Shown piece by piece: positions 334-10,322 of a stretch of 10,322 nucleotides of DNA. Location: the IMG/VR virus record IMGVR_UViG_2526164646_000015; one strand, given 5' to 3'. This stretch comes from a virus. Its lineage: Duplodnaviria; Heunggongvirae; Uroviricota; Caudoviricetes. Below the pieces are notes generated by a model, which was not told where the DNA came from, searched no databases, and saw only the letters and a program-made list of their open reading frames with translations. Each line of letters starts with the position of its first letter. Within the stretch, counting starts at the first letter, position 1. The position numbers and the translations under genes are program-made.

Positions 334-763
334 TTATTCATAGATAAAAGTGACACCAATGACTGACTGGACGGTTCCGGCTGAAACCTTGTTTCCTGTT
401 TGTCCATAGGTTGCGCTTAAACCCAGAGGTACTTTGCTTTTATTTACTGTCCCCAGGGAGACATTTTCTCCCGTAGCCAGTATTTTTCCATTACGCATTA
501 GAGTGACACCCACTCCCGATGCTTTTGTTGCATCAGGTGCTGTGTTAGCAAACACTTGTCGGCTACTGTCAGTGGTGGCACCCGAAAGATAAAATGAGAG
601 CTTTTGTTCGCTTGAGCAATATACGCCAAGGGGTATTTCTGCGCTTCCAGGAAAGTCCGGGAGATCCACGGTGACATTACGACTATCAACGGTGCAGCCG
701 CCTGTTGGCATAACAACACTGTTATTTGAAATAATATTCCACGTAAAATTACGCGGATTTCCG
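334..763 (-). pseudogene. FimH-family fimbrial adhesin gene, 3' fragment (C-terminal pilin domain only); 5' part replaced by IS1
   Basis: ORF 334..777 (-) translation (..[42 protein letters not shown]) matches, from memory, the C-terminal pilin domain of E. coli FimH (..PTGGC..LPDYPGS..YC..GVGVQLTRNG..VQSIIGVTFVYQ). The frame runs directly into the IS1 terminal repeat at 764, so the tracked start (TTG at 775-777) is IS1-encoded and no native N-terminus or signal peptide is present. Confidence 0.7.
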
Positions 764-818
764 GGTAATGCTGCCAACTTACTGATTTAGTGTATGATGG
801 TGATTTTAAGGTGCTTGC

Positions 819-1530: not shown

Positions 1531-2454
1531 CAGGAGTCGCTGAAAAATACGCGTTAATCGAACAATGGCGACAACAATTTCCCATTGAAGCGATGTGTCA
1601 GGTATTTGGTGTATCCAGGAGCGGTTATTACAACTGGGTACAGCATGAACCCTCAGACAGAAAACAAAGTGATGAGCGGCTAAAACTGGAGATTAAGGTG
1701 GCACATATCCGCACTCGCGAAACATATGGAACCCGGCGGCTCCAGACGGAGCTGGCAGAGAATGGCATCATCGTTGGTCGTGACCGACTGGCACGTCTTC
1801 GTAAGGAGCTGAGGCTACGCTGTAAGCAGAAACGCAAGTTCAGAGCAACTACGAACCCGAACCACAATCTGCCAGTTGCGCCAAATCTGCTGAACCAGAC
1901 GTTCGCTCCTACAGCACCAAATCAGGTCTGGGTGGCGGACCTGACGTATGTTGCCACACAGGAGGGATGGTTGTACCTCGCTGGCATCAAAGATGTTTAT
2001 ACGTGCGAAATTGTCGGCTACGCCATGGGAGAGCGCATGACAAAAGAGCTGACAGGTAAAGCCCTGTTTATGGCGCTCAGGAGCCAGCGCCCACCTGCCG
2101 GGCTAATCCACCACTCTGATCGAGGTTCACAGTACTGCGCATACGATTACCGGGTCATACAGGAGCAGTCTGGTCTGAAAACATCAATGTCGCGTAAAGG
2201 TAACTGTTACGACAACGCTCCGATGGAAAGCTTCTGGGGAACGCTGAAAAATGAGAGCCTGAGCCACTATCGTTTTAATAACCGGGATGAAGCCATCTCA
2301 GTAATACGGGAATACATTGAGATTTTCTACAATCGTCAGCGTCGTCACTCTCGTCTGGGGAATATCTCCCCGGCAGCCTTCAGGGAAAAATATCATCAGA
2401 TGGCTGCTTAAAAAAAGAACAAATGGTAGTGTCCGCTATTGCCAGTACACCTCA
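1531..2454 (+). mobile_element. IS600-like (IS3 family) element, 5'-truncated copy lacking about 340 bp including nearly all of orfA
   Basis: 1531-2454 is the reverse complement of the inner 924 bp of the second copy (9123-10046) wherever spot-checked (both junction regions and the orfB start); orfB translations are identical. Homology starts immediately after the IS1 right end and stops at ..GTACACCTCA (2454), a typical IS3-family CA terminus. Confidence 0.85.
1593..2411 (+). CDS. IS600-like orfB transposase (DDE integrase-core domain), IS3 family
   Basis: 272-aa ORF with IS3-family OrfB hallmarks (..WVADLTYV..GWLYLAGIKDVYTCEIVGYAMG..HHSDRGSQYCAYDY..GNCYDNAPMESFWGTLKNE..) and identical to the ORF at 9166..9984 (-). 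orfA, needed for the normal OrfAB frameshift fusion, is missing upstream. Confidence 0.85.
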   Translation: MCQVFGVSRSGYYNWVQHEPSDRKQSDERLKLEIKVAHIRTRETYGTRRLQTELAENGIIVGRDRLARLRKELRLRCKQKRKFRATTNPNHNLPVAPNLLNQTFAPTAPNQVWVADLTYVATQEGWLYLAGIKDVYTCEIVGYAMGERMTKELTGKALFMALRSQRPPAGLIHHSDRGSQYCAYDYRVIQEQSGLKTSMSRKGNCYDNAPMESFWGTLKNESLSHYRFNNRDEAISVIREYIEIFYNRQRRHSRLGNISPAAFREKYHQMAA

Positions 2455-2737: not shown

Positions 2738-2977
2738 ATGGGTAGCATTAACCTGCGTATTGACGATGAACTTAAAGCGCGTTCTTACGCCGCGCTTGAA
2801 AAAATGGGTGTAACTCCTTCTGAAGCGCTTCGTCTCATGCTCGAGTATATCGCTGACAATGAACGCTTGCCGTTCAAACAGACACTCCTGAGTGATGAAG
2901 ATGCTGAACTTGTGGAGATAGTGAAAGAACGGCTTCGTAATCCTAAGCCAGTACGTGTGACGCTGGATGAACTCTGA
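2738..2977 (+). CDS. relB: RelB antitoxin
   Basis: 79-aa product MGSINLRIDDELKARSYA..LEK.GVTPSEALRL.LEYIADNERLPFKQTLLSDEDAELVEIVKERLRNPKPVRVTLDEL is near-identical to E. coli K-12 RelB as I recall it; stop overlaps the relE start (TGATG). Confidence 0.95.
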   Translation: MGSINLRIDDELKARSYAALEKMGVTPSEALRLMLEYIADNERLPFKQTLLSDEDAELVEIVKERLRNPKPVRVTLDEL

Positions 2978-3264
2978 TGGCGTATTTTCTGGATTTTGAC
3001 GAGCGGGCACTAAAGGAATGGCGAAAGCTGGGCTCGACGGTACGTGAACAGTTGAAAAAGAAGCTGGTTGAAGTACTTGAGTCACCCCGGATTGAAGCAA
3101 ACAAGCTCCGTGGTATGCCTGATTGTTACAAGATTAAGCTCCGGTCTTCAGGCTATCGCCTTGTATACCAGGTTATAGACGAGAAAGTTGTCGTTTTCGT
3201 GATTTCTGTTGGGAAAAGAGAACGCTCGGAAGTATATAGCGAGGCGGTCAAACGCATTCTCTGA
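2977..3264 (+). CDS. relE: RelE mRNA-interferase toxin
   Basis: 95-aa product MAYFLDFDERALKEWRKLGSTVREQLKKKLVEVLESPRIEANKLRGMPDCYKIKLRSSGYRLVYQVIDEKVVVFVISVGKRERSEVYSEAVKRIL matches K-12 RelE; translationally coupled to relB. Confidence 0.95.
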   Translation: MAYFLDFDERALKEWRKLGSTVREQLKKKLVEVLESPRIEANKLRGMPDCYKIKLRSSGYRLVYQVIDEKVVVFVISVGKRERSEVYSEAVKRIL

Positions 3265-3335
3265 ACCAAAGCATGACATCTCTGTTTCGCACCGAAGGTG
3301 ACACTTCTGCTTTGCGTTGACAGGAGAAGCAGGCT

Positions 3336-3491
3336 ATGAAGCAGCAAAAGGCGATGTTAATCGCCCTGATCGTCATCTGTTTAACCGTCATAGTGACGGC
3401 ACTGGTAACGAGGAAAGACCTCTGCGAGGTACGAATCCGAACCGGCCAGACGGAGGTCGCTGTCTTCACAGCTTACGAACCTGAGGAGTAA
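3336..3491 (+). CDS. hokD: HokD (RelF) Hok-family small membrane toxin
   Basis: Not in the ORF track (below length cutoff). ATG at 3336, TAA at 3489-3491; translation MKQQKAMLIALIVICLTVIVTALVTRKDLCEVRIRTGQTEVAVFTAYEPEE (51 aa) matches HokD/RelF of K-12 Qin from memory. Confidence 0.9.
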   Translation: MKQQKAMLIALIVICLTVIVTALVTRKDLCEVRIRTGQTEVAVFTAYEPEE

Positions 3492-5739: not shown

Positions 5740-6561
5740 ATGAAACTGGAAGATTTACCGAAATACTACTCCCCAAAATCCCCTGGCCTGACCGATGCAT
5801 CGGCCTCAACGTCAAAAGATGCGCTGAGTATCACTGATGTGATGGCCGCGCAGGGCATGACACAGAATCGGGCTGAGATGGGTTTTTCTGCGTTCCTGGG
5901 GAAAATGGGCATCAGTATGAATGACAGGGCGCGGGCAACAGAATTACTGGCAGATTATGCACTCAGTCGGTGCGATCGTGTGGCGGCGTTGAGAAAACTT
6001 CCGGCAGAAATAAAACCGGTAGTGATGCGCATTATGGCTTCGTACGCTTTTGAGGATTATGCCCGCAGCGCAGCGAGTAAAAAGCAGTGCCCTTGTTGCT
6101 ATGGGGAAAAATTTATTGAAAGCATAGTTTTTACAAACAAGATCCAGTATCCGGATGGTAAGCCGCCGGTATGGGCAAAGTGTACGAAAGGTGTGTATCC
6201 GTCTTACTGGGAAGAATGGAAAAAAGTCAGGGAGGTGGTAAAAGTTGCCTGTCCGGAGTGTGGCGGAAAGGGTGAGGTTTCCACCGCCTGTAAGGATTGC
6301 CGTGGGCGTGGTGTCGCCATTCATCGTGAAGAGTCGGTAAAACGTGGTATGCCTGTTATCAGAGACTGCCAGCGTTGTGGTGGTCGTGGCTATGAAAGAC
6401 TACCATCAACGGAGGCATTTAATGCTATATGCGAGGTGACAAACCAGATAACACGCGCGTCATGGGAAAAAACAGTTAAGAAATTTTATGATGCGCTGGT
6501 GACCCGGTTTGATATTGAAGAAGCATGGGCTGAGCGGCAGTTAAAAAAGGTAACTAGGTAA
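5740..6561 (+). CDS. Late-gene antiterminator Q-like protein (QuuQ/phage-82 class) with four DnaJ-type CxxCxG(xG) zinc-finger repeats
   Basis: Position (after ydfU/rusA, immediately before a PR'-like promoter, tR'-like terminator and tRNA genes) is that of Q in lambdoid phages; N-terminus MKLEDLPKYYSPKSP resembles what I recall of K-12 QuuQ; repeats CPCCYGEK, CPECGGKG, CKDCRGRG, CQRCGGRG are read directly from the translation. Family assignment is from memory, not a search. Confidence 0.65.
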   Translation: MKLEDLPKYYSPKSPGLTDASASTSKDALSITDVMAAQGMTQNRAEMGFSAFLGKMGISMNDRARATELLADYALSRCDRVAALRKLPAEIKPVVMRIMASYAFEDYARSAASKKQCPCCYGEKFIESIVFTNKIQYPDGKPPVWAKCTKGVYPSYWEEWKKVREVVKVACPECGGKGEVSTACKDCRGRGVAIHREESVKRGMPVIRDCQRCGGRGYERLPSTEAFNAICEVTNQITRASWEKTVKKFYDALVTRFDIEEAWAERQLKKVTR

Positions 6562-6595: not shown

Positions 6596-6642
6596 GTCAT
6601 GATGATGGGCGTTTTATGCCTGGCGTTAGAAGAGTTTCTACA

Positions 6643-6668
6643 ACCCGCCGCTGAGCGGGTTTTTTTAT
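6643..6668 (+). terminator. tR'-like intrinsic terminator (target of Q antitermination)
   Basis: ACCCGC-CGCTGA-GCGGGTTTTTTTATTG: 6-bp GC stem plus T7 tract about 50-70 nt downstream of the PR'-like promoter, giving a short 6S-like leader transcript. Confidence 0.7.
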
Positions 6669-6705
6669 TGCGAAATTAATTACGGACCGTTATTATTCTG
6701 CTCCC

Positions 6706-6781
6706 GGCCCTTTAGCTCAGTGGTGAGAGCGAGCGACTCATAATCGCCAGGTCGCTGGTTCAAATCCAGCAAGGGCCACCA
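6706..6781 (+). tRNA. tRNA-Ile2 (anticodon CAU, lysidine-type, ileX/ileZ-like)
   Basis: 76-nt cloverleaf: acceptor GGCCCTT/AAGGGCC, D arm GCTC..GAGC, anticodon loop CU-CAT-AA, T arm GCTGG-TTCAAAT-CCAGC, terminal ACCA. Close to remembered E. coli ileX, hence Ile2 rather than Met. Confidence 0.85.
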
Positions 6782-6882: not shown

Positions 6883-6959
6883 GCGTTGTTAGCTCAGCCG
6901 GACAGAGCAATTGCCTTCTAAGCAATCGGTCACTGGTTCGAATCCAGTACAGCGCGCCA
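6883..6959 (+). tRNA. tRNA-Arg (anticodon UCU, reads AGA; argU/argO-like)
   Basis: 77-nt cloverleaf: acceptor GCGTTGT/ACAGCGC (one G-U), D arm GCTC..GAGC, anticodon stem ATTGC/GCAAT with loop CT-TCT-AA, T arm ACTGG-TTCGAAT-CCAGT, discriminator G, CCA encoded. Confidence 0.85.
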
Positions 6960-7069
6960 TATTCATTCTTCCAGATTCCTTCCGGCAGAGCCTTATACTG
7001 AAATATACCTGGCTCAGGATATTGTTGAAAATATTATATATTTGTCAAAAATAAAAGTTCTGTTAAGTA

Positions 7070-7423
7070 TTGATTGAGTATTTGTTATACGGTCTAATGG
7101 TTTTTTCAGCATTAAGTATTTATCATTCATATGGTGTGGGTAGAGTGAATATTGATGAGGCGTCGGGGTGTTTCATCCTTAGGCAGCGTATTGATATAGT
7201 CAATGCAGCACGAGCAAAGGCCTTCAGCCGTTTGACAGTTTTGTTCTGTACTCCTGATCGTCTTTCGGGAAGAGACGTTATTATTCTGAATAGTGATGCT
7301 ATACAGAGGGTTTGCGATGAGTTCATGGTTGCTAATTCAGAATTATTTGCTCTTGTTCAGGAGTACAACAGAATAGCCAGGACCTGTGGTATGGATGAAC
7401 TTCGGATTACTCATCTGGGGTAG
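7070..7423 (+). CDS. Hypothetical protein (117 aa), hydrophobic N-terminus, unknown function; cargo (moron) ORF
   Basis: ORF from the track; TTG start at 7070 or ATG at 7097, neither with a convincing Shine-Dalgarno. Contains 3 AGA, 3 AGG and 3 AUA codons (6 of 11 Arg, 3 of 11 Ile). No family recognised. Confidence 0.35.
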   Translation: MIEYLLYGLMVFSALSIYHSYGVGRVNIDEASGCFILRQRIDIVNAARAKAFSRLTVLFCTPDRLSGRDVIILNSDAIQRVCDEFMVANSELFALVQEYNRIARTCGMDELRITHLG

Positions 7424-7503
7424 ATACATATCTGGATTATCACCTGTTACGGTAAAAAGTGATTGCTTACTGTTTTTGTTAATGGCATTGCAGCAGCCGG
7501 ATA

Positions 7504-7590
7504 ATGTCAGTGCCGGCTGACGGTGTGCTGGTGGCGGGTGTGGTGGTTGTTGCTTTCCCGTTGCTGAAAAAGAAAACGCCAGACTGTTAG
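7504..7590 (+). CDS. Candidate small hydrophobic peptide (28 aa: MSVPADGVLVAGVVVVAFPLLKKKTPDC), speculative
   Basis: Manually read ORF; ATG lies in the loop of a CAGCCGG..CCGGCTG hairpin; predicted single TM helix followed by KKK. Weak RBS; no homology recognised. Could be a chance ORF. Confidence 0.2.
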   Translation: MSVPADGVLVAGVVVVAFPLLKKKTPDC

Positions 7591-7815
7591 CCGGGTATCA
7601 GTTAGCGGGAGAAATTTTTAAATACTTCACAATTCAGGCGGTTGACTGTTGTCTGGTTTGCGGGGAGTTTGTTAAAAGAAACTGGCATGGTGAATCCCCC
7701 TGTGCGGAGGGGCAATCAGCGAGTAGGTATATGGGATAATCGCGGATTCAGGTGCTGGTACTGAATTCACCGGGAGGCACCCGGCACCATGGAATGGCAC
7801 ATAGCGCCACTCTCC

Positions 7816-7850
7816 AGCCCCTCTCCGGAGGGGCTGTTTATATTGATTTT
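7816..7850 (+). terminator. Intrinsic terminator (perfect 8-bp stem AGCCCCTC-TCCG-GAGGGGCT plus T-rich tail)
   Basis: Perfect palindrome 7816-7835 followed by GTTTATATTGATTTT; lies between the convergent + strand cargo ORFs and the stop codon (7871) of the - strand ORF. Confidence 0.6.
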
Positions 7851-7870
7851 GTCAGATGTGAGTAAACTCC

Positions 7871-8206
7871 TTATGGACTTTGTTGTTTTAGTCCATAAGG
7901 ACATATTTGCAGAGTGCAACGGTTATTAAAGCATTCATTCAATACGTTATCTGTATTTGTAGGGCATTCCTGGCTGTTTTTGATTAAATTCCAGAATGTT
8001 TTATTGAATGGTACTACGTTGTAAATGGTTACAGGTAGCACTTTGTTATTGAGCATGATGCCTGTGTGAGTCAGTGTAAATATACTTTCAGGAGGTAAGA
8101 AAGCATCCGATTGATACCAGATTATTAATTTTATTTTACTCCATATGACTGAAAAAGATATTCCGCATGATGGCTGGATAACTGTATCAATCACAATCCA
8201 CTTCAT
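7871..8206 (-). CDS. Hypothetical protein (111 aa), Trp/Cys-rich, unknown function; cargo (moron) ORF
   Basis: ATG at 8206 preceded on the - strand by AAGGA at 7-nt spacing; a TATACT -10-like element lies further upstream in very AT-rich DNA. No family recognised. Confidence 0.4.
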
Positions 8207-8450
8207 TTAGTTTCCTTGTTTATGCCTTGCTGGTGATGTTCTGAAAAGTATAAATGATATTTTTGAATTAAACCATAGAGCAGAATTATTTTTCTGATGT
8301 TGTTTATTGTTTATTTAAATGCAGGGTGGTTTATATCTCGTCTTGTAGTTTATCCATGCATATCTGCTTGATAATCAGGTTTTTATTTAAGGTATGGTTT
8401 TGTGTTTTTTCTGTATTACATGTCAGGTATTTTAAAGAATTATTTTTCAG

Positions 8451-8654
8451 ATGTTGGAAAGAACCATGGCATTTAAACACTATGATGTTGTCAGGGCGGC
8501 GCCGCCGTCAGATCTTGCGGAAAAGCTGACACATAAACTGAAAGAGGGCTGGCAGCCGTTTGGTAGTCCGGTGGCCATAACCCCTTATACCCTGATGCAG
8601 GCGATTGCAGCAGAAGGTGATGTGGTGGTCAGTGGTGCAACTGAGCCGGAGTGA
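8451..8654 (+). CDS. Small conserved-looking prophage protein (62-67 aa), unknown function; possibly DUF1737-like
   Basis: ORF MLERTMAFKHYDVVRAAPPSDLAEKLTHKLKEGWQPFGSPV..; the more likely start is ATG 8466 (MAFKHYDVV). The YDVV..LAEK..LKEGWQP.G pattern resembles small phage proteins I recall near lysis cassettes, but I cannot confirm the family without a search. Confidence 0.5.
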   Translation: MLERTMAFKHYDVVRAAPPSDLAEKLTHKLKEGWQPFGSPVAITPYTLMQAIAAEGDVVVSGATEPE

Positions 8655-8897
8655 TACTACGTCATCGTACTGGCCCGGCATTCCAGGCCATAAAAGACAG
8701 TCTGGCAGTGGGACTAAATGCACTGACGCTGACGGATATTACCAAAAATGCAACGTATGGCGTTGAGATAGAAAGTCTGGTGCTGGAGATAAATGCACCG
8801 GCATCATCATAAAAAGTGAGCCAGTCAAATGGAAGGTATCGTTAAACTCACCGGTAGTGTCAGTGGGTCGTCTGAGACGCTTGCATGAGTTATCAGA

Positions 8898-8961: not shown

Positions 8962-9122
8962 ATGGACCAGATGGAAAAAATCACAACAGGTGTGTCATAC
9001 ACCACGTCAGCGGTGGGAACGGGCTACTGGTTCCTGCAGTTGCTGGACAGGGTTTCCCCGTCTCAGTGGGCGGCAATAGGCGTGCTGGGGAGTCTGCTGT
9101 TTGGGCTGCTGACATATCTGAC
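8962..9122 (+). pseudogene. Phage-21-type pinholin (S21-like class II holin) gene, 3' end removed by IS600 insertion
   Basis: ATG at 8962 with GGAG RBS; [54 protein letters not shown] aligns with remembered phage 21 S ([60 protein letters not shown]..). The frame enters IS600 at 9123 and the last 6 codons (EVYWQ*) are IS-encoded, so the charged C-terminal tail is lost. The tracked ORF start at 8857 is an upstream in-frame extension, not the real start. Confidence 0.75.
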
Positions 9123-9165
9123 TGAGGTGTACTGGCAATAGCGGACACTACCATTTGTTCTTTTT

Positions 9166-9984
9166 TTAAGCAGCCATCTGATGATATTTTTCCCTGAAGG
9201 CTGCCGGGGAGATATTCCCCAGACGAGAGTGACGACGCTGACGATTGTAGAAAATCTCAATGTATTCCCGTATTACTGAGATGGCTTCATCCCGGTTATT
9301 AAAACGATAGTGGCTCAGGCTCTCATTTTTCAGCGTTCCCCAGAAGCTTTCCATCGGAGCGTTGTCGTAACAGTTACCTTTACGCGACATTGATGTTTTC
9401 AGACCAGACTGCTCCTGTATGACCCGGTAATCGTATGCGCAGTACTGTGAACCTCGATCAGAGTGGTGGATTAGCCCGGCAGGTGGGCGCTGGCTCCTGA
9501 GCGCCATAAACAGGGCTTTACCTGTCAGCTCTTTTGTCATGCGCTCTCCCATGGCGTAGCCGACAATTTCGCACGTATAAACATCTTTGATGCCAGCGAG
9601 GTACAACCATCCCTCCTGTGTGGCAACATACGTCAGGTCCGCCACCCAGACCTGATTTGGTGCTGTAGGAGCGAACGTCTGGTTCAGCAGATTTGGCGCA
9701 ACTGGCAGATTGTGGTTCGGGTTCGTAGTCGCTCTGAACTTGCGTTTCTGCTTACAGCGTAGCCTCAGCTCCTTACGAAGACGTGCCAGTCGGTCACGAC
9801 CAACGATGATGCCATTCTCTGCCAGCTCCGTCTGGAGCCGCCGGGTTCCATATGTTTCGCGAGTGCGGATATGTGCCACCTTAATCTCCAGTTTTAGCCG
9901 CTCATCACTTTGTTTTCTGTCTGAGGGTTCATGCTGTACCCAGTTGTAATAACCGCTCCTGGATACACCAAATACCTGACACAT
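9166..9984 (-). CDS. IS600-like orfB transposase (DDE), IS3 family
   Basis: 272-aa ORF identical in translation to 1593..2411 (+). Confidence 0.9.
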   Translation of the reverse strand: MCQVFGVSRSGYYNWVQHEPSDRKQSDERLKLEIKVAHIRTRETYGTRRLQTELAENGIIVGRDRLARLRKELRLRCKQKRKFRATTNPNHNLPVAPNLLNQTFAPTAPNQVWVADLTYVATQEGWLYLAGIKDVYTCEIVGYAMGERMTKELTGKALFMALRSQRPPAGLIHHSDRGSQYCAYDYRVIQEQSGLKTSMSRKGNCYDNAPMESFWGTLKNESLSHYRFNNRDEAISVIREYIEIFYNRQRRHSRLGNISPAAFREKYHQMAA

Positions 9985-10019
9985 CGCTTCAATGGGAAAT
10001 TGTTGTCGCCATTGTTCGA

Positions 10020-10322
10020 TTAACGCGTATTTTTCAGCGACTCCTGTGCAAAATACGCTGTTGCTTTTTTTAATATATCTCGCTCAAGGCGAGCTTCATT
10101 TAACGCCTTACGCAGTTGCAGAATTTCAGATTCCAGTTCAGCCACCGTGCGGGAACCAGGAGTACCGAGCCCTTTTCTGGCGGCGGTAACCCATTGTCCT
10201 AAAGTGCCTTCAGGAAGAGATAATCGGGAAGCGCCTTCACTGATCGAAAGTTGATTTTCAAGAACCGTTCTGACAGCTTCGGCTTTGAACTCTTTAGAGT
10301 AACGTTGGGTTTTTCTGCTCAT
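10020..10322 (-). CDS. IS600-like orfA (HTH DNA-binding component of the OrfAB transposase)
   Basis: 100-aa ORF MSRKTQRYSKEFKAEAVRTVLENQLSISEGASRLSLPEGTLGQWV..ILKKATAYFAQESL has the IS3-family OrfA layout (HTH followed by leucine-zipper-like segment ending ..KKATAYFA); overlaps the orfB frame as expected for programmed -1 frameshifting. Confidence 0.9.
   Translation of the reverse strand: MSRKTQRYSKEFKAEAVRTVLENQLSISEGASRLSLPEGTLGQWVTAARKGLGTPGSRTVAELESEILQLRKALNEARLERDILKKATAYFAQESLKNTR

What the first reader, a model, noticed from the sequence alone, without database searches (positions are those of the whole stretch)
7871..8320. 111-aa Trp/Cys-rich ORF of unknown family on the opposite strand, with its own SD and AT-rich promoter region
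The ORF ([32 protein letters not shown].. with a C-terminal cluster of four Cys) has a good Shine-Dalgarno (AAGGA, 7 nt from ATG) and a TATACT -10-like element upstream. It is transcribed against the phage late operon and ends at a palindromic terminator, so it looks like an independently expressed lysogenic-conversion gene rather than a late gene. I do not recognise the family. Hydrophobic N-terminus plus Cys-rich C-terminus could indicate a secreted or membrane-associated disulfide-bonded product, but this is conjecture.
Basis: partly seen in the sequence, partly recalled or inferred. Interest (0 to 1): 0.5.

Follow-up and report, generated by a model that had tools for sequence, protein, structure and literature searches.

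The report
iraL, a known prophage RssB anti-adaptor
The 111-codon reverse-strand ORF is iraL, an already characterised prophage gene whose protein blocks the adaptor RssB, so the stress sigma factor RpoS escapes ClpXP degradation; it is a real gene, not a new family.

Summary
The ORF at 7871..8206 (-) is real. Its CDS is 100% identical in DNA and protein to iraL (c1429) of E. coli CFT073. It scores 162 bits against NCBIfam NF007393, 'anti-adapter protein IraM' (cutoff 121). It is 62% identical to K-12 IraM, and its residues 1-78 match the crystallised IraM in PDB 8TWD.

IraL was described in 2014 (mBio, PMC4045071). [quoted passage not shown]

The gene is an AT-rich, independently transcribed moron between Q and the holin of a Qin-like, IS-degraded prophage. 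The chromosome is Shigella flexneri-type.

- The family is not unknown.
- The secreted, disulfide-bonded idea is not supported. The hydrophobic N-terminus forms the beta-strands of a cytoplasmic PmrD-like barrel that contacts RssB.
- The 'terminator' hairpin has its T-run only on the + strand.

Three small loose ends remain:
- The four tail cysteines are invariant across the family and unstudied.
- All Shigella copies examined carry a 1-bp deletion in the -35 region.
- A weak PhoP-box-like site lies upstream.

Novelty: already known. Interest: low.

The parts
7871..8206 (-). iraL coding sequence (111 aa, stop included). The CDS is 100% identical in nucleotides and amino acids to CFT073 iraL/c1429 (WP_000871291.1).
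   Evidence: NCBIfam NF007393 162 bits vs cutoff 121; PDB 8twd_A E=9e-32
8213..8217 (-). Shine-Dalgarno AAGGA, 6 nt upstream of the ATG
   Evidence: read from the sequence
8207..8239 (-). 5' UTR (33 nt), from the published 5'-RACE transcription start (A at 8239) to the base before the ATG. It differs from CFT073 by one C->T change at 8209.
   Evidence: PMC4045071 gives the mRNA 5' end as ACATCACCAGCAAGGCATAAACAAGGAAACCA; mapped by alignment
8247..8252 (-). -10 hexamer TATACT of the sigma-70 iraL promoter
   Evidence: 7 nt separate it from the mapped start site
8267..8274 (-). -35 region GGTTTAAT. CFT073 reads GGTTTACAT, where TTTACA sits 15 nt from the -10. The window and all six Shigella loci lack the C, leaving TTTAAT.
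   Evidence: In E. coli, 166 of the 1430 genomes that carry this 60-nt promoter stretch match the window's version exactly.
8301..8317 (+). PhoP-box-like direct repeat TGTTTATTGTTTATTTA, 62-78 nt upstream of the iraL start site. This is a weak lead only.
   Evidence: It is the only match with <=1 mismatch in the window (1 found, 0.17 expected, 33/200 shuffles reach 1). It is invariant in all loci compared.
7815..7836 (.). GC-rich hairpin (9-bp stem, 4-nt loop), 35 nt downstream of the iraL stop. The T-tract is on the + strand only and the A-tract is on the iraL side. It most likely terminates the convergent + strand unit (tRNAs, 117-aa ORF, tciB-like gene) and marks or stabilises the iraL 3' end.
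   Evidence: 78-nt segment containing the hairpin: MFE -27.4 kcal/mol on the minus strand and -28.2 on the plus strand; z = -2.8 and -3.2
5740..6561 (+). Context: late antiterminator Q gene (Pfam Antiterm), followed by a terminator-like hairpin at 6642..6661
8962..9141 (+). Context: class II holin gene truncated by IS600 (IS600 starts at about 9123). The late operon is dead in this prophage.

Best explanation
The ORF is iraL. It is a monocistronic, AT-rich moron in the Q-to-holin slot of a Qin-like defective lambdoid prophage, on a Shigella flexneri-type chromosome.

It is transcribed in the lysogen from its own sigma-70 promoter (-10 TATACT, start at 8239, 33-nt leader, AAGGA ribosome-binding site).

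The 12.8-kDa cytoplasmic product folds through residues 1-78 into a PmrD-like beta-barrel. That barrel binds the response-regulator-like adaptor RssB and occludes the alpha4-beta5-alpha5 face of its receiver domain. RssB can then no longer hand sigma-S (RpoS) to ClpXP, so sigma-S is stabilised and the general stress regulon is primed even in exponential growth.

Shown here:
- Identity of the gene.
- Family membership.
- Fold.
- Conservation of the contact residues.
- Promoter correspondence.
- Genomic context.

Shown only in the literature for the identical protein: RssB binding and sigma-S stabilisation.

Inferred: that the allele in this strain, with its altered -35, is expressed at a useful level.
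For: - Identity: the CDS is 100% identical in nucleotides and amino acids to CFT073 iraL.
- Family: NF007393 scores 162 bits against a cutoff of 121. The protein is 62% identical to K-12 IraM, and phmmer against IraM in PDB 8TWD gives E = 9e-32.
- Fold: in the AlphaFold model, residues 1-78 have pLDDT 81-92. They superpose on 8twd_A with target-normalised TM-score (TMt) 0.90 and rmsd 1.3 A, and on PmrD 4hn7 with TMt 0.72.
- Contacts: all five IraM cluster-I residues that touch the RssB receiver domain (I4, I6, W22, K26, I42; PMC10844676) are identical in this protein.
- Published function: PMC4045071 reports that IraL co-purifies with RssB and binds its N-terminal domain in two-hybrid assays. 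Deleting iraL lowers log-phase sigma-S in CFT073 and S. sonnei and halves the sigma-S half-life. The same paper maps the 5'-RACE start.
- Selection: dN/dS is 0.10-0.16 against paralogues.
- Context: CFT073 and E. coli 042 have the same order, hokD-DUF968-rusA-Q-tRNAs-DUF3927-iraL(-)-DUF1737-holin.
- Distribution: about 1650 of 5426 complete E. coli genomes carry an iraL-type copy.
Against: - Nothing contradicts the identification.
- The -35 region of this allele lacks one base relative to CFT073, giving TTTAAT instead of TTTACA. Expression in this strain is therefore unverified.
- The current Pfam-A copy gave no hit, whereas precomputed tables list PF11183 PmrD.
- The role of the invariant Cys-rich tail is not explained by the published mechanism.
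Confidence: 0.95

Rival explanations
1. The gene is iraL, but this allele is weakly expressed or silent. The 1-bp deletion degrades the -35 hexamer and shortens the spacer, and the 31%-GC upstream region could also be silenced by H-NS. On this reading it contributes little to sigma-S control in this lineage. This rival is compatible with the identification; it concerns activity only.
For: - The deletion turns TTTACA, 15 nt from the -10, into TTTAAT, 14 nt from it. It is shared by all six Shigella loci fetched.
- It is a minority variant in E. coli: 166 exact matches among 1430 genomes with this promoter stretch.
- GC is 0.31 across 8100-8400.
Against: - The CDS is perfectly conserved, and the only coding variant seen among the Shigella loci is synonymous (TGT->TGC at 7901). 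That argues for continued selection despite heavy IS decay all around it.
- PMC4045071 reports a sigma-S defect in an S. sonnei iraL mutant. Whether S. sonnei has the same -35 variant was not checked here.
Confidence: 0.2
2. One reading: a secreted or membrane-anchored, disulfide-bonded lysogenic-conversion protein of an unknown family.
For: The N-terminal third is hydrophobic, and four Cys are clustered in the tail.
Against: - The maximum 19-residue hydropathy is 1.44, there is no charged n-region followed by an uninterrupted h-region, and Asp sits at position 7.
- Residues 1-33 are beta-strands of a soluble barrel in the model and in the IraM-RssB crystal structure (PMC10844676).
- The partner RssB is cytoplasmic, and the identical protein co-purifies with it.
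Confidence: 0.02
3. A PmrD-type connector that protects a phosphorylated response regulator such as PmrA, rather than acting on RssB.
For: - The fold resembles PmrD (4hn7 TMt 0.72).
- Precomputed Pfam tables assign PF11183 PmrD.
Against: - Identity to PmrD is only 14-20%, against 62-65% to IraM.
- The identical protein was shown to bind RssB and to stabilise sigma-S (PMC4045071).
- The RssB-contact cluster I is fully conserved.
Confidence: 0.03
4. A chance ORF in AT-rich DNA, with the real gene on the + strand.
For: None beyond the low GC content.
Against: - No + strand ORF of 40 aa or more covers the region.
- The frame is conserved in all homologues and dN/dS is about 0.1-0.16.
- There are published transcript and protein data (PMC4045071).
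Confidence: 0.005

Closest known systems
IraL (c1429, formerly ycgW) of uropathogenic E. coli CFT073; Hryckowian et al. 2014, mBio (PMC4045071)
   Same: - The CDS is 100% identical in nucleotides and amino acids.
- The neighbouring genes and orientation are the same (Q, tRNAs, DUF3927, iraL on the opposite strand, DUF1737, holin).
- The -10, transcription start and ribosome-binding site are the same.
   Different: - The host prophage sits at a different chromosomal site. In CFT073 it is at potB. Here it is a Qin-like remnant beside ydfJ/ydfI and ydeP-safA-ydeO.
- There is a 1-bp deletion in the -35 region, an A instead of a G at position -1, and a C->T change in the leader.
- CFT073 has three tRNA genes upstream and the window has two.
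- Here the prophage is cut by IS600 and IS1.
IraM (b1160) of E. coli K-12, the PhoP/low-Mg2+-induced RssB anti-adaptor; structure 8TWD (PMC10844676)
   Same: - 62% amino-acid identity and the same length class.
- The same PmrD-like barrel over residues 1-78.
- All five cluster-I RssB contacts are identical.
- The four tail Cys and the ICPYG motif are identical.
   Different: - The promoter and flanking DNA are unrelated. DNA similarity stops at the CDS borders, and iraM lies next to e14 beside ycgX.
- Cluster II is 3/5 identical and cluster III 2/4 identical (T13S, L75I, H63N, I64V).
- IraL is reported to bind only the RssB N-terminal domain and to act in unstressed log phase.
Other prophage-borne IraM-family paralogues, for example the copy immediately downstream of stx2c in E. 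coli strain 136
   Same: - The slot (between Q and the holin) is the same, and so is the orientation against the late operon.
- It is 107 aa, with the same Cys4 tail.
   Different: - DNA identity is about 74%.
- It lies next to Shiga toxin genes and an intact SASA-family esterase gene, rather than the truncated esterase remnant seen here.
PmrD (polymyxin-resistance connector protein, PDB 4HN7)
   Same: The beta-barrel fold of residues 1-78 is shared. Both are small proteins that bind a receiver domain (PMC10844676).
   Different: - Identity is only 14-20%.
- PmrD has no Cys4 tail.
- The target is different (PmrA~P rather than RssB).
The cspB/cspF/ynfU cargo of K-12 Qin, as the occupant of the same moron slot
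   Same: The prophage backbone is the same: relB-relE-hokD-rem-ydfU-Q ... essQ.
   Different: K-12 Qin carries cold-shock-protein genes in the slot. The window carries tRNAs, a 117-aa ORF, a tciB-like remnant, iraL and an esterase remnant.

Membership tests
IraM/IraL/RssC anti-adaptor family (NCBIfam NF007393) | Full-length match to the family model above the curated cutoff | tested here: met
   162 bits against a cutoff of 121, covering residues 1-110 of 111
IraL specifically (as distinct from IraM) | >=95% identity to CFT073 iraL over the whole CDS (the criterion used in PMC4045071) and the iraL-type promoter and context | tested here: met
   The CDS is 100% identical. The 681-bp region around it is 99% identical, with one indel in the -35 region.
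IraM/IraL/RssC anti-adaptor family | PmrD-like antiparallel beta-barrel plus helix in residues 1-78 | tested here: met
   phmmer against 8twd_A gives E = 9e-32. The model has pLDDT 81-92 over residues 1-80, with TMt 0.90 and rmsd 1.3 A to 8twd_A.
IraM/IraL/RssC anti-adaptor family | Conservation of the residues that contact RssB in the IraM-RssB crystal structure | tested here: met
   Cluster I is 5/5 identical. Cluster II is 3/5 identical with 2 conservative changes. Cluster III is 2/4 identical (one search compared with PMC10844676).
IraM/IraL/RssC anti-adaptor family | Binds RssB and stabilises sigma-S against ClpXP | not testable with these tools
   Published for the identical protein from CFT073 and for an S. 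sonnei mutant (PMC4045071). Not measured for this strain.
Prophage moron (independent transcription unit inside a prophage) | Own promoter, own 3' boundary, deviating base composition, location between conserved phage modules, orientation independent of the phage operon | tested here: met
   - The promoter and start site correspond to published 5' RACE.
- A hairpin lies at 7815-7836.
- GC is 0.31-0.39 against 0.46-0.53 in the flanks.
- The gene lies between Q and the holin.
- The Q-S slot holds other cargo in K-12 Qin.
PmrD family (Pfam PF11183) | Sequence match to the PmrD model | tested here: inconclusive
   hmmscan against the current Pfam-A copy gave no family at E <= 1. Precomputed tables list PF11183 for this protein and all its relatives. 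The fold is similar, but identity is only 14-20%.
   The maximum Kyte-Doolittle 19-residue window is 1.44, and Asp7 interrupts the N-terminus. The segment is beta-strand in the model and in the homologue's structure. No dedicated signal-peptide predictor was available.

The most novel reading that the evidence does not exclude
The C-terminal tail (ECP-x9-C-x4-C-x4-CPYG) is not a dispensable floppy end. It would be a conserved metal-binding or redox-sensitive module that controls the stability or activity of IraL/IraM, making the anti-adaptor itself a sensor.

For:
- C81, P82, C92, C97, I101, C102, P103 and G105 are invariant in 15 family members down to 53% identity.
- The structural paper removed this tail as 'less conserved', proteolytically unstable and flexible (PMC10844676).
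- I found no paper that addresses these cysteines.

Against or neutral:
- AlphaFold gives the tail low confidence (pLDDT 46-52).

A second, smaller possibility is that the -35 deletion shared by the Shigella loci retunes iraL expression.
Probability: 0.25. Interest if true: 0.4.

Novelty: already known. Interest (0 to 1): 0.12.

Why it matters
As a discovery it does not matter: iraL was named and characterised in 2014, and RefSeq already labels it an anti-adapter protein.

It is still useful for annotation and biology:
- It shows that, in a Shigella prophage otherwise shredded by IS600 and IS1, the one cargo gene kept perfectly intact is a host-physiology regulator that raises RpoS during growth.
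- Phage-centred resources still call this family 'unknown function' (PHROG 4407), so naive phage annotation will keep flagging it as novel.
- The invariant Cys4 tail and the polymorphic -35 region are cheap, testable follow-ups for people working on RssB anti-adaptors.

Tried and rejected
- Pfam-A scan of the ORF gave no hit, which at first agreed with 'unknown family'. NCBIfam, the PDB sequence search and RefSeq annotation then overturned this.
- I tested for a PhoP box, because iraM is PhoP-regulated. There is one 1-mismatch site at 8301-8317, but it is not significant window-wide (0.17 expected; 33/200 shuffles reach 1). K-12 iraM upstream showed only chance-level 2-mismatch sites. I kept this as a lead, not a finding.
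It proposed other minus-strand sites at 8313..8285 and 8155..8128. I disregarded these in favour of the published 5'-RACE start.
- I considered the hairpin as the iraL intrinsic terminator. In that simple form I rejected it, because the T-run is only on the + strand.
- I considered a membrane or secreted product and rejected it.
- I tried to name the source organism from accession numbers in the literature. Only two of five accessions were found: S. flexneri AUSMDU00008355 and an S. boydii reference.
- The word-indexed homology search returned only Escherichia proteins (20 clusters). Salmonella RssC, about 49% identical to iraL by ClustalW alignment of the genes according to PMC4045071, was not recovered, so family breadth beyond Escherichia was not measured. 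I ran no further search on a known family.

Full report
**1. The observation**

The window contains a minus-strand ORF from the ATG at 8206 to the stop at 7871.

- AAGGA lies at 8217..8213, six bases before the ATG.
- TATACT lies at 8252..8247.
- The protein has four Trp and five Cys. Four of the Cys are at residues 81, 92, 97 and 102.
- GC falls to 0.31-0.39 over 7800-8550, against 0.46-0.53 on either side.
- A 9-bp GC-rich hairpin lies at 7815..7836, 35 nt past the stop. Its T-run is on the + strand only, so the scan scores it as a + strand terminator.
- No + strand ORF of 40 aa or more spans the gene.

**2. What it is**

A megablast of 6960-8460 against complete E. coli genomes hit 2720 of 5426 genomes. 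RefSeq labels the ORF 'anti-adapter protein IraM' there. The evidence then converged.

- NCBIfam NF007393 (anti-adapter protein IraM) scores 162 bits against a curated cutoff of 121.
- phmmer against PDB sequences finds IraM in the IraM-RssB complex 8TWD at E = 9e-32.
- The literature describes a paralogue, IraL, in uropathogenic E. coli CFT073 and in Shigella (Hryckowian et al. 2014, PMC4045071).
- I fetched the CFT073 potB-prophage region. The ORF is 100% identical to CFT073 iraL in protein, and also in nucleotide sequence over the CDS. It is 62% identical to K-12 IraM.
- A later paper gives the CFT073 locus tag as c1429.

**3. Promoter**

The 2014 paper mapped the iraL mRNA 5' end by 5' RACE to ACATCACCAGCAAGGCATAAACAAGGAAACCA. 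The window's minus strand reads ACATCACCAGCAAGGCATAAACAAGGAAACTA from position 8239, which is one C->T difference at 8209.

The leader is 33 nt.

One base is missing upstream relative to CFT073 and E. coli 042: GGTTTA-ATTC against GGTTTACATTC. This removes the C of the best -35 candidate, TTTACA.

- All six Shigella-type loci I retrieved share this deletion.
- Among the 1430 complete E. coli genomes that carry this 60-nt promoter stretch, 166 match the window's version exactly and 255 match the CFT073 version exactly.
- Most of the rest have the C plus a neighbouring T->A change, as in an ST131 strain.

Whether the deletion lowers expression is not known.

**4. Source and context**

The truncated holin product of the window (59 aa, fused to IS600) was looked up by exact sequence.

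- It occurs on Shigella chromosomes of 4.4-4.6 Mb.
- The whole 10,322-nt window is 99.9% identical to CP026765.1 and to LR213452.1. LR213452.1 is S. flexneri AUSMDU00008355 (PMC9376355).
- Another carrier of the same junction is an S. boydii reference genome.

The backbone is relB-relE-hokD-rem-DUF968(ydfU)-rusA-Q ... holin. Apart from rusA, this is the order in the K-12 cryptic prophage Qin. K-12 Qin carries ynfS, cspF, cspB and ynfU between Q and essQ. The window carries instead two tRNA genes, a 117-aa ORF, a tciB-like remnant, iraL and an esterase remnant.

CFT073 and E. coli 042 have the same Q-to-holin cargo. A more distant IraM-family paralogue (about 74% DNA identity) sits in the same slot and the same reverse orientation, directly after stx2c in a bovine strain.

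iraL is thus a classic moron in the variable Q-S region. In this window the holin is cut by IS600 at about 9123-9141. The left side is bounded by an inverted, IS1-truncated IS600 copy. The late operon that would run antisense through iraL is therefore dead.

**5. Is the gene under selection?**

- The frame is intact at 111 aa in all six Shigella loci.
- The only coding difference among them is a synonymous TGT->TGC change at 7901.
- Against diverged paralogues (K-12 iraM, the stx2c-linked copy and a 90%-identical variant), Nei-Gojobori dN/dS is 0.10-0.16 for the distant pairs and 0.41 for the close pair. dS is near saturation for the distant pairs.

**6. How it works**

The mechanism below is published for the identical protein.

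- IraL co-purifies with RssB.
- It interacts with the RssB N-terminal receiver domain in two-hybrid assays.
- Deleting iraL lowers log-phase sigma-S in CFT073 and S. sonnei.
- Deletion shortens the sigma-S half-life from about 5 to about 2.5 min.

The IraM-RssB crystal structure (PMC10844676) shows the following.

- IraM residues 1-78 form a PmrD-like beta-barrel.
- The barrel bridges both RssB domains and covers the alpha4-beta5-alpha5 face where sigma-S binds.
- There are three contact clusters.

In the window's protein:

- Cluster I (I4, I6, W22, K26, I42), which touches the receiver domain, is 5/5 identical.
- Cluster II (RssB C-terminal domain) is 3/5 identical, with T13S and L75I.
- Cluster III (linker) is 2/4 identical, with H63N and I64V.

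This pattern fits the report that IraL binds only the N-terminal domain, but that link is my inference.

An AlphaFold model built on a 15-sequence alignment gives pLDDT 81-92 over residues 1-80 and 46-52 over the tail. Residues 1-78 superpose on 8twd_A (target-normalised TM-score, TMt, 0.90; 1.3 A) and on PmrD 4hn7 (TMt 0.72).

The hydrophobic N-terminus is therefore buried barrel and interface, not a signal peptide or membrane anchor. The best 19-residue hydropathy window is 1.44.

**7. Regulation reported by others**

iraL mRNA or protein rises in a CFT073 fur mutant (PMC7157518). It also rises 1.6 log2-fold on a shift from 23 to 37 degrees C (PMC12890032).

I looked for a PhoP box because iraM is PhoP-dependent. 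One 1-mismatch site lies at 8301..8317, 62-78 nt upstream of the start. It is the only such site in the window, but it is not significant: 0.17 expected, and 33 of 200 shuffles reach one.

**8. The hairpin**

The hairpin at 7815-7836 has an A-rich run on the iraL side and a T-rich run on the + strand side. The 78-nt segment that contains it folds at about -27 to -28 kcal/mol on either strand.

The most economical reading has two parts.

- It terminates the convergent + strand unit (tRNAs, the 117-aa ORF and the tciB-like gene), keeping that transcription from running antisense into iraL.
- It also provides a stable 3' stem for the iraL mRNA.

This is inference. End-mapping would settle it.

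**9. What is not explained**

The four tail cysteines and the surrounding CP...ICPYG motif are invariant in 15 family members down to 53% identity. The structural study nevertheless removed the tail as less conserved, unstable and flexible. A literature search for IraM, RssB and cysteine found nothing on these residues. A metal-binding or redox role is possible but untested.

**10. Verdict**

- The 'unknown family' reading is wrong.
- The 'secreted, disulfide-bonded' reading is wrong.
- The 'own promoter, lysogenic conversion' reading is right.

Interest is low. The small open points are the Cys4 tail, the Shigella -35 deletion and the weak PhoP-like site.

Noticed in passing
window 8451-8812 (+): The DUF1737 ORF (67 aa) and the following 53-aa ORF match the first ~58 and last ~50 positions of the same 634-position PHROG profile (phrog_143). 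In a stx2c phage the same slot holds a 645-aa SASA-family carbohydrate esterase. The two small ORFs therefore look like the ends of a nanS-p-like esterase gene that lost its middle.
   Followed up: partly
window 7459-7590 (+): The DUF3927/TciB-like gene has an in-frame stop at codon 8 (VIAYCFC*WHC...), where E. coli 042 has Glu. Only a 28-aa C-terminal piece is called in the Shigella genomes.
   Followed up: partly
window 7070-7423 (+): A 117-aa ORF matches phrog_2873 (unknown function) at E = 2e-69 from residue 10 onward. RefSeq does not annotate it in CFT073 or E. coli 042. It looks like a real but unannotated phage gene of about 108 aa.
   Followed up: partly
window 1531-2454 (+) and 9123-10322 (-); IS1 at 763-1530: Two inverted IS600 copies bracket the prophage remnant. 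The left copy lacks orfA and abuts an IS1. The right copy cuts the holin gene. Other Shigella genomes show rearranged versions of the same junctions, so the segment seems to have been inverted or moved by IS600 recombination.
   Followed up: partly
window 334-777 (-): A fimbrial-subunit-like ORF (weak Pfam Fimbrial hit in the matching Shigella locus) ends against the IS1 element and appears truncated.
   Followed up: no
window 6706-6781 and 6883-6959 (+): There are two phage-borne tRNA genes just after Q. ARAGORN calls the first tRNA-Met (CAT), while RefSeq calls the homologous gene tRNA-Ile. The second is tRNA-Arg (TCT). CFT073 has three tRNAs here (Ile, Arg, Arg), and the window lacks one Arg gene. 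A terminator-like hairpin (6642-6661) and a promoter-like site (6668-6696) lie just upstream.
   Followed up: no
window 2738-3491 (+): An intact relB-relE-hokD toxin-antitoxin cluster, as in K-12 Qin, is retained next to the IS elements.
   Followed up: no
L010 6003-6326 (-) (E. coli strain 136): An IraM-family paralogue (107 aa, about 74% DNA identity to iraL) lies immediately downstream of stx2c A/B, in the opposite orientation. Some Shiga-toxin phages therefore carry an RssB anti-adaptor-like gene beside the toxin.
   Followed up: partly
window 7871-8206 (-), database behaviour: The current Pfam-A copy returns no family for IraL even at E <= 1, whereas precomputed tables list PF11183 (PmrD) for it and all relatives. 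PHROGs files the family (phrog_4407) as 'unknown function'.
   Followed up: no
K-12 IraM residue 63 (L002 2997-3320): His63 is one of the cluster-III contact residues in the IraM-RssB structure. It is Asn in all 15 family sequences aligned here, including the iraM-type cluster representative. The K-12 residue seems to be the exception.
   Followed up: no
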